A stretch of DNA of 64,000 nucleotides, taken from the NCBI RefSeq assembly GCF_988242995.1, contig NZ_OZ547043.1; one strand, written 5' to 3'. The translations under genes were made by a program, and so were the position numbers. The notes below the pieces were generated by a model that was not told where the DNA came from, searched no databases, and was given only the letters and a program-made list of their open reading frames with translations. This document shows, one piece after another, positions 26,691 through 43,498 of the stretch (position 1 is the stretch's first letter; the number at the start of each line of letters is the position of its first letter).

Positions 26691-26706
26691 TGTGATGCAG
26701 ATCACA
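26691..26706. promoter_or_regulatory. CRP binding site of the flhDC promoter
   Basis: TGTGAtgcagaTCACA palindrome centred about 70 bp upstream of the position expected for the flhDC transcription start (about 200 nt upstream of flhD ATG). Confidence 0.75.
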
Positions 26707-33584: not shown

Positions 33585-34380
33585 GGTTCTCTCCAGCTTT
33601 AGTGTCGTTTTGTGTAGGGCAAAAACGAATGACATTCGTTAAATTAATCGGAAAACAAAGCATTACCTTTTAACTAAAAGATAAGTGACCGTGTTGACAT
33701 AGTTTTAGCGAGAAATTAATTCTCCATAGGAGAGCAATATCACATCGCAGAATTACAGTGAGAACGTGCATAAATTTAGCGGGAAAAGACATAAGGGAAA
33801 GCCAATTTGTCAGACAAATTGTCGAATGCACAGCAGATTAATCCATAAGATTAGCCTGGAAATCCTTGTTGTCTTTGGTACCCATGCGGGATGTCTTCTT
33901 TTTAACCAGTCAATAGGCCGCATTACCTGGCGTTGAGTTTTTGAAATGGTGTAATAACCGCAACTCAAAGATGTGGAAAATGTACGTCATTCATTTCGCC
34001 ATTAATTATCACTGTGCTCATTAATTAACAGAACACGTATAATGAGAGCCATCTCGCAAAAATGAAAAAACGTTTTATAAAATCATCACTTCATCATGAA
34101 TTCAAATTCATTGATTAATATCAACAAGATACAAAAAGCGCTATCATTAAAATTCATTGCAGTTACATTGATTTCATCAATGAAATGTAAAAATATATAA
34201 ACTTGATGATTTAAGCATTTTCTTATACCCGTTCAGACGTTATTCTTATTTCAGATCATCGTCAGAATTGACTCCACGATCACATTTCGGACCGGCAGAA
34301 AGGAATTATTCTGCAAACAGTAATTATGGTGTTTTGATTTATCTTGCACCTCTCCACTTCTGGATATAAGGATATTAGGT

Positions 34381-34884
34381 ATGGCAACCGCTGGAATGCT
34401 TCTCAAACTCAACTCTCAAATGAACCGCGAGTTTTACGCATCCAATCTCTACCTTCACCTGAGTAACTGGTGTTCTGAACAGAGTCTGAACGGCACCGCC
34501 ACTTTCCTTCGCGCCCAGGCACAGAGTAATGTGACCCAAATGATGCGCATGTTTAACTTTATGAAGAGTGTCGGCGCTACCCCCATCGTTAAAGCCATTG
34601 ATGTTCCCGGTGAAAAACTGAACTCTCTGGAAGAACTGTTCCAAAAAACGATGGAAGAATACGAGCAACGTTCTAGTACGTTGGCACAGTTAGCCGATGA
34701 AGCGAAAGAACTGAATGATGATTCAACCGTCAATTTCCTGCGCGATCTGGAAAAAGAACAGCAGCATGATGGTCTGTTGCTGCAAACCATTCTTGATGAA
34801 GTGCGCAGTGCGAAACTTGCGGGTATGTGCCCTGTGCAGACCGACCAACATGTTCTGAATGTCGTGTCACACCAGCTGCATTGA
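34381..34884 (+). CDS. ftnB: ferritin-like protein FtnB (167 aa)
   Basis: ORF track; ferritin fold, paralogue of ftnA about 1.8 kb downstream. Confidence 0.93.
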
Positions 34885-34926
34885 TCATCATCGGCGCTAA
34901 TGCATTGCGCCGATGAAGGTTTTGAG

Positions 34927-34965
34927 AAACCGCTGCCTCATCTGTTTGAAGCAGCGGTTTTTTTA
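34927..34965 (+). terminator. rho-independent terminator of ftnB
   Basis: stem aaaccgctgc/gcagcggttt followed by T-tract; preceded by a second hairpin catcggcgc/gcgccgatg at 34887-34913. Confidence 0.7.
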
Positions 34966-35214: not shown

Positions 35215-35300
35215 CGTAAACTCCTGATAGCATTTTGAAAGCCGTTATAGTAGCGGCTTCACATCTTCAGCGATAGTCACATCCACCGTCATCAGGACAC

Positions 35301-35327
35301 AAAAAAACCTGCCGGAGCAGGTTTTTT
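35301..35327. terminator. intrinsic terminator hairpin flanked by A- and T-tracts (bidirectional form), just downstream of azuC
   Basis: AAAAAAA-cctgccggagcagg-TTTTTT. Confidence 0.75.
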
Positions 35328-35328
35328 A

Positions 35329-35415
35329 TTATCGGAACATATTGCCTGGCGGTACGTCTTTGAACGTCTTGCAATAGTTATTGAACATACTTTTCAGGAT
35401 TTTGCGCAGTTTCAT
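35329..35415 (-). CDS. azuC: small membrane-associated protein AzuC (28 aa; mRNA also known as sRNA IsrB)
   Basis: hand translation of minus strand gives MKLRKILKSMFNNYCKTFKDVPPGNMFR-stop; not in the ORF track because it is below the length cutoff. Confidence 0.85.
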   Translation of the reverse strand: MKLRKILKSMFNNYCKTFKDVPPGNMFR

Positions 35416-35677
35416 CGCGGCACTCCGACCATTTGTTATACAGGTGTTATTGTCTTTGCGCTTATAATATGACAACCATCACAAAAATCAATCTTTATGT
35501 GATACAAATCACATAAATACTCCTTTAATGTTATAAAAATGATAATCAAAAAACAGCCCCCCTATTTCTGACACCTACAGATGGCAAGAAATAGCGCCTG
35601 CCAGGCGTCTTTTCCGGCCATTGTCGCAGCGCTGTAACGCGTAAAATAGTGCTTTCTCTTACTCTTCTGGCTGGACC

Positions 35678-36001
35678 ATGAGACTTCTGATTCTGACTCT
35701 TTCATTAATAACGCTGGCGGGGTGTACGGTTACTCGCCAGGCCCATGTGAGCGAAGTTGACGCGGCAACAGGTATTGTACGGTTGGTTTATGACCAGGCT
35801 TTTTTGCAGCATGCCCATACCGATCGTTATGTCAGTCGCGGGATCGCCGATCGCGCATGCCAGCAGGAAGGCTATACCCACGCGGTCCCCTTTGGTCAGC
35901 CAGTAGGCAACTGTAGCCTTTTTGCGGGTTCCTTATGTTTGAATACGGAATTCACTTTGTCATATCAGTGCCATCATTCCGCCTTCCCTGTCTTTCTCTA
36001 A
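35678..36001 (+). CDS. yecR: lipoprotein YecR (107 aa), flagellar-regulon member
   Basis: ORF track; lipobox LAGC at N-terminus. Confidence 0.85.
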   Translation: MRLLILTLSLITLAGCTVTRQAHVSEVDAATGIVRLVYDQAFLQHAHTDRYVSRGIADRACQQEGYTHAVPFGQPVGNCSLFAGSLCLNTEFTLSYQCHHSAFPVFL

Positions 36002-39075: not shown

Positions 39076-39270
39076 ACGCTTTTCCTTGTGGATCTCAACT
39101 CGCCAGCACCTATCTTACATGCCGGTCCGTATCAGAGATACTTTTTGAGTGGCTTTGCTGGTGATTAAAAATTAAGGAGGGTGTAACGACAAGTTGCAGG
39201 CACAAAAAAACCACCCGAAGGTGGTTTCACGACACTGCTTATTGCTTTGATTTTATTCTTATCTTTCCCA

Positions 39271-42815: not shown

Positions 42816-43273
42816 AGGAATATCTCCAGAAATAGGGATAACGCTACTGATAGTTAGTCATTCGTATATTAGCGGTTTTTATTGCAACTTTGAAACGTTA
42901 AAAATGGTGGGTATTCGATTTTTCTCTCGTTTTTGTCAATTCGATTGTCCACAGTTATGGTCACGCCCGTCACCAACGGTTTACCGGATCGTTTCACAGT
43001 AAGCCCTACGATGAAATGTGACAAAAATTGACTTTATTCAGCAAAAATGAAAATCAGCCCGCTGAATATGTAACATTAATTAACCCGAACAATACGGGCA
43101 AAAAACATTCATGATAAAAATATTTATTGGTCATTATATTAACGTATTTTATAGCACTGCCGATATCACGCTCAAAAAACAACCACTGCTATTTTTAGCA
43201 AAGCTTATGGTATACTCCGCCGCCTTAACATTTTTCACCGCAAATTTTCATTGCAACATGACGAGGAAAATAA

Positions 43274-43498
43274 ATGAGTACGCCTGATTTTTCTACTGCC
43301 GAGAATAATCAAGAACTGGCAAATGAAGTCTCCTGCCTGAAAGCGATGCTGACGCTGATGCTGCAGGCGATGGGACAAGCTGACGCGGGCCGCGTGATGT
43401 TAAAGATGGAAAAACAGCTTGCGCTGATCGAAGACGAAACCCAGGCTGCAGTATTTTCCAAAACGGTTAAGCAAATTAAACAAGCCTACCGTCAGTAA
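43274..43498 (+). CDS. yecF: DUF2594 protein YecF (74 aa)
   Basis: ORF track; position between uvrY and sdiA as in K-12. Confidence 0.85.

What the first reader, a model, noticed from the sequence alone, without database searches (positions are those of the whole stretch)
35329..36001. 28-codon azuC gene below ORF-caller threshold, adjacent to flagellar-regulon lipoprotein yecR
Hand translation of the minus strand at 35329-35415 gives MKLRKILKSMFNNYCKTFKDVPPGNMFR, the known AzuC small protein (its mRNA was first described as the sRNA IsrB). It is absent from the supplied ORF track because of its size and is followed by a clean bidirectional terminator (35301-35327). It illustrates that the ORF track undercalls small proteins; other intergenic regions here (for example 33585-34380, 42816-43273) could hide more.
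Basis: partly seen in the sequence, partly recalled or inferred. Interest (0 to 1): 0.25.

Follow-up and report, generated by a model that had tools for sequence, protein, structure and literature searches.

The report
Known E. coli azuC small-protein gene
This is the already well-studied E. coli azuC gene: a 164-nt RNA that both encodes a 28-amino-acid membrane peptide and acts as a regulatory RNA, so the reading is correct but ordinary.

Summary
Window 35329-35415 (minus strand) translates to MKLRKILKSMFNNYCKTFKDVPPGNMFR*. This matches NCBIfam's AzuC equivalog model (75.9 bits against a cut-off of 30). The DNA is identical to E. coli K-12 azuC (b4663), and the gene sits in the canonical yecJ–azuC–yecR position. 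The window is a non-K-12 E. coli chromosome, 99.3% identical to MG1655 over 11 kb.

The gene is present full-length in 5418 of 5426 complete E. coli genomes. Across E. coli alleles and three divergent Escherichia lineages, the ORF changes are almost all synonymous, with one conservative K8R replacement. The terminator hairpin is invariant.

The AzuC peptide activates GlpD at the membrane. The same RNA, as AzuR (K-12 ncRNA b4434), base-pairs with cadA and galE. FnrS represses AzuC translation, and CRP, FNR, NarP and PhoP repress the promoter. All published sequence elements can be placed in the window.

The neighbour yecR is a flagellar-regulon lipoprotein, as claimed. "Bidirectional" terminator is only a structural inference. 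The hunch about hidden small genes holds for one of the two gaps: yecU lies at 43111-43287.

Verdict: already known, low interest.

The parts
35294..35457 (-). AzuCR (IsrB/IS092) transcript, 164 nt. The 5' end is at 35457, equal to K-12 1988001. The K-12 annotation of azuR (b4434) ends at 35299, giving 159 nt.
   Evidence: The coordinates were transferred with the colinear offset, window = K-12 minus 1952544. The TSS and length come from PMC8915982. The only difference from K-12 inside the transcript is at 35328. It is present full-length in 5418 of 5426 complete E. coli genomes.
35329..35415 (-). azuC coding sequence: 28 codons plus a TAA stop
   Evidence: Translation. NF033642 at 75.9 bits against a cut-off of 30. 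RefSeq annotates azuC, WP_010723106.1. The substitutions are synonymous, apart from one K8R.
35423..35426 (-). Shine-Dalgarno GGAG, 7 nt upstream of the ATG
   Evidence: Read directly from the sequence. Invariant in all nine aligned Escherichia sequences.
35440..35446 (-). FnrS pairing site CACCUGU, 25-31 nt upstream of the ORF, complementary to the FnrS 5' end GCAGGUG
   Evidence: The position is given in PMC8915982. The AzuCR and K-12 FnrS sequences were printed. CACCTG is conserved in divergent Escherichia. The last base is C in those lineages, giving a G-C pair instead of a G-U pair.
35344..35377 (-). Predicted AzuR base-pairing region for cadA (AzuCR nt ~81-114), inside the coding sequence. 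The boundaries are approximate.
   Evidence: A local duplex search pairs this stretch with cadA -16..+19, at -22 to -25 kcal/mol. This agrees with the paper's statements that pairing lies near the cadA ribosome-binding site and within the azuC coding sequence. The exact published coordinates appear only in figures that I could not read.
35301..35327 (-). Intrinsic terminator of AzuCR: an 11-bp stem, a 4-nt loop and U7, with a mirror A6 tract on the 5' side
   Evidence: Fold at -19.4 kcal/mol, z = -6.6. Identical at 27 of 27 positions in three divergent Escherichia lineages.
35464..35491 (-). Sigma-70 promoter: -35 TTGATT (35491-35486), a 16-nt spacer, and -10 TATTAT (35469-35464). The TSS lies 7 nt downstream.
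   Evidence: Promoter scan. Consistent with the published TSS. Both hexamers are invariant in all aligned sequences.
35498..35513 (.). CRP site 1, a perfect consensus TGTGA-N6-TCACA, centred about 48.5 bp upstream of the TSS
   Evidence: Pattern search. CRP repression and two predicted CRP sites are reported in PMC8915982. The half-sites are conserved and only the spacer varies.
35468..35483 (.). CRP site 2, one mismatch from consensus, overlapping the -10 hexamer
   Evidence: Pattern search. The overlap with the -10 suggests repression by occlusion, which is my inference.
35495..35532 (.). Published FNR (35495-35514), PhoP (35502-35519) and NarP (35516-35532) repressor sites of the isrB promoter
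   Evidence: K-12 coordinates 1988039-1988076 from PMC12266141, converted with the offset. I did not test these motifs independently.
35678..36001 (+). yecR, the divergently transcribed neighbour: a flagellar L-ring-associated lipoprotein with signal peptide and lipobox MRLLILTLSLITLAGC. It is not part of AzuCR.
   Evidence: PF13992, E = 2.7e-30. K-12 b1904. FlhDC dependence. L-ring association.

Best explanation
The locus is the E. coli azuCR gene (formerly isrB/IS092). A sigma-70 promoter drives a 164-nt RNA (35457 to about 35294, minus strand) that ends at an intrinsic terminator. CRP represses the promoter at two sites, and FNR, NarP and PhoP repress it just upstream.

The RNA has two competing activities. 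As an mRNA, it is translated from the ATG at 35415 into the 28-aa peptide AzuC. [quoted passage not shown] As the sRNA AzuR, a stretch inside the coding sequence base-pairs with cadA (at its ribosome-binding site) and galE (within its coding sequence) and represses both. Because the pairing region lies inside the ORF, translation and riboregulation interfere with each other. Under anaerobiosis, the 5' end of the sRNA FnrS pairs 25-31 nt upstream of the ORF and blocks AzuC synthesis.

Shown here: the ORF, its family match, its identity to K-12, its conservation pattern, the promoter, CRP, SD and FnrS-site sequences, the terminator, the cadA complementarity and the amphipathicity. Taken from the literature and not testable here: transcription, translation, GlpD binding, target repression and the regulators.
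For: The ORF is intact. It scores 75.9 bits against the AzuC equivalog HMM, cut-off 30. K-12 annotates azuC b4663 and azuR b4434 at the corresponding coordinates. The window is colinear with K-12, and the only difference inside the transcript is at 35328, after the stop codon.

The gene is annotated as azuC across RefSeq E. coli and is present in 5418 of 5426 genomes at 95% identity or more.

The substitution pattern shows selection on the peptide. Six E. coli alleles carry 4 synonymous sites plus a TAA-to-TAG change, with no replacements. Three divergent Escherichia lineages differ at 6-8 of 87 ORF positions. Together those make nine synonymous sites and one conservative K8R.

The -35/-10 hexamers lie 7 nt upstream of the published TSS. 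There is a perfect and a near-perfect CRP site. The terminator folds with z = -6.6 and is invariant.

The FnrS 5' end GCAGGUG is complementary to CACCUGU at exactly the published position. AzuCR nt ~81-114 pair with cadA -16..+19. The N-terminal 20 residues have a hydrophobic moment of 0.53-0.60, reached by 1% or fewer of shuffles, and the peptide has a net charge of +6.

The experimental basis is PMC8915982, the review PMC12612679 and PMC12266141.
Against: Nothing here contradicts this explanation. Five limits remain.

1. My best local duplex with galE uses AzuCR nt 27-54, covering the SD and start codon, paired with galE +290..+320. The paper describes a region fully inside the ORF, so I could not reproduce the published galE pairing site.

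2. No shuffle control was completed for the duplex energies, because timed out.

3. Rfam has no family for this RNA. There were no hits at gathering score, and only weak hits driven by the terminator hairpin.

4. Outside the terminator, the RNA is not unusually structured (z = -1.5).

5. All functional data come from K-12, not from this strain.
Confidence: 0.95

Rival explanations
1. The transcript is only an mRNA for the small protein AzuC. This is the first reader's implicit reading: the earlier 'sRNA IsrB' label was simply a mis-annotation and the RNA has no riboregulatory role.
For: The peptide is clearly under selection. The RNA body is not unusually structured (z = -1.5). Rfam has no family for it. 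Repression of cadA and galE did not require Hfq.
Against: Raina et al. 2022 show repression of cadA-gfp and galE-gfp by a stop-codon mutant RNA. Point mutations abolish that repression, and compensatory mutations in the targets restore it. K-12 annotates the ncRNA azuR. I recover extended complementarity to the cadA translation-initiation region.
Confidence: 0.04
2. It is a purely non-coding sRNA (IsrB), and the 28-codon ORF is a chance open frame.
For: It was originally found in a screen for sRNA genes. Open frames of this length are common by chance: 55 ORFs of 20 aa or more overlap the surrounding 3.5 kb.
Against: Nine synonymous sites against one conservative replacement across Escherichia, and an identical protein accession in an allele that differs at 8 of 164 nt. 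A conserved SD at the correct spacing. A match to a curated equivalog HMM. Published detection of the SPA-tagged peptide and of ribosome occupancy.
Confidence: 0.01
3. The real product is the longer 48-aa ORF starting at the TTG at 35475, as the mechanical ORF list reports.
For: the ORF listing reports 35329-35475 as a single 48-aa ORF.
Against: The TTG lies 18 nt upstream of the published TSS at 35457 and inside the promoter spacer. It has no SD. A 1-nt indel between the TTG and the ATG shifts the frame in E. whittamii, Escherichia sp. E1V33 and a third divergent Escherichia lineage (L013, labelled E. coli). The NCBIfam model covers only the 28-aa form.
Confidence: 0.005

Closest known systems
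AzuC / AzuCR (IsrB, IS092) of E. coli K-12: azuC b4663 and azuR b4434 (Hemm et al. 2008 and 2010; Raina et al. 2022)
   Same: The coding DNA is identical. The whole transcript is identical except for one base after the stop codon. The synteny (yecJ–azuC–yecR), promoter, CRP sites, SD, FnrS site and terminator are all the same.
   Different: Nothing of substance. The window comes from a non-K-12 strain, 99.3% identical over 11 kb. C-to-T at 35328 turns TAAC into a tandem stop, TAATAA.
SgrS/SgrT of E. coli (dual-function sRNA)
   Same: A small RNA that both base-pairs with mRNAs and encodes a small protein acting on carbon metabolism.
   Different: In SgrS the coding and pairing regions are separate, and both activities target the same pathway (PtsG). 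In AzuCR the two regions overlap and compete, and they act on partly different pathways. There is no sequence relationship.
VcdRP of Vibrio cholerae, and Spot 42/SpfP of E. coli
   Same: These are CRP-repressed dual-function RNAs. [quoted passage not shown]
   Different: The sequences, targets (PTS transporters and citrate synthase) and chaperone dependence all differ. The relationship is analogy, not homology.

Membership tests
AzuC (NCBIfam NF033642, stress response protein AzuC, equivalog) | The protein scores above the curated HMM cut-off | tested here: met
   75.9 bits against a cut-off of 30, E = 1.3e-21, covering residues 2-27 of 28. Pfam has no model for it.
AzuC (NCBIfam NF033642, stress response protein AzuC, equivalog) | Same sequence and chromosomal position as K-12 azuC b4663, between yecJ and yecR | tested here: met
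   No differences from K-12 at 35329-35415. The gene order ftnB–yecJ–azuC–yecR–ftnA is the same.
AzuC (NCBIfam NF033642, stress response protein AzuC, equivalog) | The ORF is translated into a stable peptide | not testable with these tools
   Published for K-12 by SPA tagging and ribosome profiling. Supported indirectly here by the SD at 7-nt spacing and by nine synonymous sites against one replacement.
AzuC (NCBIfam NF033642, stress response protein AzuC, equivalog) | An amphipathic, membrane-associating helix | tested here: met
   The hydrophobic moment of residues 1-20 or 2-19 is 0.53-0.60, reached by 1% or fewer of shuffles. Net charge is +6. Membrane localisation itself comes from the literature.
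AzuCR dual-function RNA (AzuR sRNA activity) | A ~164-nt transcript bounded by the published TSS and an intrinsic terminator | tested here: met
   The -10 hexamer ends 7 nt upstream of the position equivalent to K-12 1988001. The terminator hairpin and U7 lie at 35301-35327. This is sequence-level evidence only; transcription was not observed here.
AzuCR dual-function RNA (AzuR sRNA activity) | A region inside the ORF complementary to the cadA translation-initiation region | tested here: met
   AzuCR nt ~81-114 pair with cadA -16..+19, at -22 to -25 kcal/mol. The cadA sequence was taken from K-12, not from this strain. No shuffle control was completed.
AzuCR dual-function RNA (AzuR sRNA activity) | Complementarity to the galE coding sequence | tested here: inconclusive
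   The best local duplex uses AzuCR nt 27-54 with galE +290..+320. I could not confirm that this is the published site, because the figure is not held as text.
AzuCR dual-function RNA (AzuR sRNA activity) | An FnrS target site 25-31 nt upstream of the ORF | tested here: met
   CACCUGU at 35446-35440 is complementary to the FnrS 5' end GCAGGUG (6 Watson-Crick pairs and 1 G-U). It is conserved in divergent Escherichia.
AzuCR dual-function RNA (AzuR sRNA activity) | CRP-repressed promoter with two CRP sites | tested here: met
   A perfect site at 35498-35513 and a one-mismatch site at 35468-35483. Repression itself comes from the literature.
Rfam sRNA family | A match to a curated covariance model at gathering score | tested here: not met
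   No hit at gathering score. Only sub-threshold hits driven by the terminator: STnc370 at 34.6 against 54 bits, and rsmX at 23.9 against 56. Rfam appears to have no AzuCR family.
Bidirectional intrinsic terminator | A G+C-rich hairpin flanked by an A tract and a U tract, so that both strands read hairpin plus U-run | tested here: met
   Both strands fold into the same 11-bp hairpin followed by U6-U7, at -19.4 and -13.5 kcal/mol.
Bidirectional intrinsic terminator | It sits between convergent transcription units and terminates both | tested here: not met
   azuC and the downstream gene yecJ are on the same strand. The nearest plus-strand gene, ftnB, ends 417 nt away and has its own hairpins with a U-run at 34885-34962. 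Actual termination cannot be tested here.
YecR-like lipoprotein (PF13992) | A Pfam domain match and an N-terminal lipobox | tested here: met
   104.9 bits against a cut-off of 27. LAGC lipobox with Cys16. FlhDC regulon membership and L-ring binding come from the literature.

The most novel reading that the evidence does not exclude
The azuC terminator hairpin may do more than terminate. It is 27/27 identical in Escherichia lineages whose flanking spacers differ by 15-40%, and it has symmetric A and U tracts. It could act as the ProQ/Hfq-binding module that decides between the mRNA and sRNA fates of AzuCR. It could also act as a true two-way insulator against antisense transcription from the yecJ side. 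Separately, the 796-bp araF–ftnB gap could still hold an unannotated small gene.
Probability: 0.1. Interest if true: 0.25.

Novelty: already known. Interest (0 to 1): 0.06.

Why it matters
It matters little as a discovery. azuC/azuCR is annotated in RefSeq and EcoCyc-derived records and has been characterised experimentally from 2002 to 2025. Its value is as a positive control for the scan. A reader without tools correctly hand-translated a 28-codon gene that length-thresholded ORF callers drop, and correctly guessed that another gap nearby (uvrY–yecF) hides a small gene, yecU. It is also a reminder that 'small ORF' and 'sRNA' annotations are not mutually exclusive: this locus is a textbook case of an RNA whose coding and base-pairing functions overlap and compete.

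Tried and rejected
1. The search for homologous proteins refuses queries under 40 aa. The search of protein representatives and structure prediction need at least 30 aa, so no protein-database survey or structure model of AzuC was possible.

2. The supplement of Raina et al. is not held as text. I therefore could not read the published cross-species alignment or the exact pairing coordinates.

3. Unrestricted RNA.duplexfold of AzuCR against its targets zips the full-length RNAs together, at -54 to -78 kcal/mol, and tells nothing. I replaced it with a sliding local search. A first attempt that included shuffle controls timed out, so the duplex energies have no null distribution.

4. The single genome-contig scan used an exact codon-degenerate MFNNYCK pattern. 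It returned 33 loci, of which 30 are chance matches in unrelated genomes. It would miss any homologue with a substitution in that motif. The result 'only three Escherichia lineages' is therefore a lower bound on the distribution.

5. scan_promoters_terminators does not report the azuC terminator. My guess is that A-U pairs extend the stem into the U tract. Direct folding was used instead.

6. Rejected: the 48-aa TTG-extended ORF, the chance-ORF reading, and a functional 'bidirectional' terminator. The reasons are given under the rival explanations and the membership tests.

Full report
**Observation.** The minus strand of window 35329-35415 reads ATG AAA CTG ... CGA TAA. A GGAG Shine-Dalgarno lies at 35426-35423, 7 nt upstream of the ATG.

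Just downstream, 35301-35327 is AAAAAACCTGCTCCGGCAGGTTTTTTT. It folds into an 11-bp stem with a 4-nt loop and a U7 tail. The energy is -19.4 kcal/mol, z = -6.6 against 200 dinucleotide shuffles, none of which folds as well. The consensus terminator scanner does not list this hairpin. My guess is that its A-U pairs extend the stem into the U tract, leaving too few U's in the tail for the scanner's rule.

The mechanical ORF list shows the frame only at a 20-aa threshold. It then appears as a 48-aa ORF starting at a TTG at 35475. That extension is an artefact, as explained below.

**Identity.** The 28-aa product scores 75.9 bits against NCBIfam NF033642, 'stress response protein AzuC', an equivalog model with a cut-off of 30. 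Pfam has no model for it.

A 901-bp query spanning the locus matches 5419 of 5426 complete E. coli genomes. The features under the match are annotated yecR, azuC and yecJ. The K-12 MG1655 record annotates azuC (b4663, 1987873-1987959) and an overlapping ncRNA, azuR (b4434, 1987843-1988001).

The window is colinear with K-12, with window coordinate = K-12 coordinate minus 1952544. It is 99.28% identical over 11 kb, so it comes from another E. coli strain. Inside the transcript the only difference is at 35328, the base after the stop codon (K-12 TAAC, window TAAT).

The gene order is araF–ftnB–yecJ–azuC–yecR–ftnA–yecH–tyrP, the standard E. coli arrangement.

**Is the ORF more than chance?** The 164-nt RNA is present full-length in 5418 of 5426 genomes at 95% identity or more.

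I fetched divergent alleles. The most divergent differs at 8 of 164 nt yet carries the same protein accession, WP_010723106.1. In the six-allele alignment, the ORF has four variable sites. All four are synonymous third positions: K5 AAA/AAG, I6 ATC/ATA, K16 AAG/AAA and P22 CCG/CCA. There is also one TAA-to-TAG stop swap.

I then scanned the species-representative genome collection with a codon-degenerate pattern for MFNNYCK. It returned 33 loci. Thirty are chance matches in unrelated genomes with no AzuC-like context. Three encode full AzuC: Escherichia whittamii, Escherichia sp. E1V33, and a divergent lineage labelled E. coli SCPM-O-B-8794.

In those three, the ORF differs from the window at 6-8 of 87 positions. 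Together the changes make nine synonymous sites, including CGA-to-AGA, and one conservative replacement, K8R.

In the same alignment:
- The terminator is 27/27 identical.
- The -35 and -10 hexamers, the CRP half-sites, the SD and the CACCTG FnrS site are kept.
- The 5' UTR differs at 6-8 of 42 positions.
- The yecR-side spacer differs at about 40% of positions.
- A 1-nt indel between the TTG at 35475 and the ATG at 35415 breaks the 48-aa extended frame in all three lineages.

This pattern fits a translated 28-codon gene embedded in a conserved small RNA.

**Mechanism, mostly from the literature and mapped here.** Raina et al. 2022 (PMC8915982) describe the 164-nt RNA, first called IS092/IsrB, as the dual-function RNA AzuCR.

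AzuC is an amphipathic peptide of the inner membrane. It co-purifies with GlpD and raises dehydrogenase activity, probably by recruiting GlpD to the membrane.

The same RNA, as AzuR, represses cadA and galE by direct base pairing, shown with compensatory mutations. The pairing region lies inside the ORF, so translation and pairing compete.

FnrS pairs 25-31 nt upstream of the ORF and represses AzuC synthesis. CRP represses transcription. Ekdahl et al. 2025 (PMC12266141) add FNR, PhoP and NarP repressor sites at K-12 1988039-1988076.

In window coordinates these features are:
- TSS at 35457. The 3' end is at about 35294 for 164 nt, or 35299 in the K-12 annotation.
- -35 TTGATT at 35491-35486 and -10 TATTAT at 35469-35464.
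- A perfect CRP consensus at 35498-35513, and a one-mismatch site at 35468-35483 that overlaps the -10.
- FNR, PhoP and NarP sites at 35495-35532.
- The FnrS site CACCUGU at 35446-35440, complementary to the FnrS 5' end GCAGGUG (sequences).
- A predicted cadA-pairing stretch at AzuCR nt ~81-114, window 35377-35344, pairing with cadA -16..+19.

My best galE duplex uses nt 27-54 with galE +290..+320. I cannot confirm that it is the published site.

The peptide's N-terminal 20 residues have a helical hydrophobic moment of 0.53-0.60, reached by 1% or fewer of shuffles. The net charge is +6. This supports the amphipathic-helix model.

Apart from the terminator, the RNA is not unusually structured (z = -1.5). 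Rfam has no family for it.

**The neighbour.** yecR (35678-36001, +) matches PF13992 at E = 2.7e-30 and starts with a signal peptide and lipobox, MRLLILTLSLITLAGC. Fitzgerald et al. 2014 (PMC4183435) report an FlhDC ChIP-seq site upstream of yecR, with expression falling from 653 to 1-2 in flhD and flhC deletion strains. Johnson et al. (bioRxiv 10.1101/2020.12.05.413195) found YecR bound to each FlgH of the flagellar L-ring.

1. It treats the sRNA label as history. The RNA is in fact a proven riboregulator as well as an mRNA.

2. 'Bidirectional terminator' is only structurally true. Both strands fold into a hairpin followed by a U-run. However, azuC and yecJ are co-oriented. The nearest plus-strand gene, ftnB, ends at 34884 and has two strong hairpins of its own at 34885-34962. 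These fold at -44.6 kcal/mol (z = -8.3), and the second is followed by U7. That gap is the true convergent terminator region of this neighbourhood.

3. The suggestion that other gaps hide small genes is right for 42816-43273. That gap contains yecU (b4752, 58 aa) at 43111-43287, identical to K-12. K-12 and strain cq9 annotate nothing in 33585-34380.

**Verdict.** The feature is already known in detail, and nothing in this strain departs from the K-12 paradigm. Interest is low, at 0.06. The main value is as a control showing that length-thresholded ORF tracks miss real small-protein genes.

Noticed in passing
window 43111-43287 (+): yecU (K-12 b4752), a 58-aa small protein whose end overlaps the yecF start by 14 nt. 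It is identical to K-12.
   Followed up: yes
window 34885-34962: The convergent ftnB/yecJ gap carries two very stable hairpins (-44.6 kcal/mol on the plus strand, z = -8.3). The second is flanked by A7 and U7. It looks like the genuine bidirectional-type terminator of this neighbourhood.
   Followed up: partly
window ~39204-39270 (-): K-12 annotates the sRNA sponge 3'ETS-leuZ (b4759) immediately 3' of tRNA-Leu in the glyW-cysT-leuZ operon. Rfam reported only the three tRNAs here.
   Followed up: no
window 26691-26706: A perfect CRP consensus, TGTGATGCAGATCACA, in the flhD–uspC intergenic region. It is presumably the CRP activator site of the flhDC promoter.
   Followed up: no
window 35215-35260 (-): The ~45 nt just upstream of the yecJ start codon are almost invariant across divergent Escherichia, far more conserved than the rest of the azuC–yecJ spacer. 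This suggests a yecJ promoter or 5' UTR element. No sigma-70 consensus was found on that strand.
   Followed up: no
window ~42957-43028 (+): RefSeq for strain cq9 annotates a 72-nt pseudogene fragment ('transcriptional regulator, missing C-terminus') in the uvrY–yecU gap. K-12 has no such feature.
   Followed up: no
window 33585-34380: The 796-bp araF–ftnB gap has no annotated feature in K-12 or cq9. It contains only short ORFs of 53 aa or fewer and differs from K-12 at only 0.5% of positions.
   Followed up: partly
L013 (NZ_JAATUR010000018.1): A genome labelled Escherichia coli strain SCPM-O-B-8794 groups with E. whittamii and Escherichia sp. E1V33 at this locus. It differs from the window by about 40% in the azuC-upstream spacer and has a different divergent start, so it is probably a cryptic-clade Escherichia rather than E. 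coli proper. It carries the only AzuC replacement seen, K8R.
   Followed up: partly
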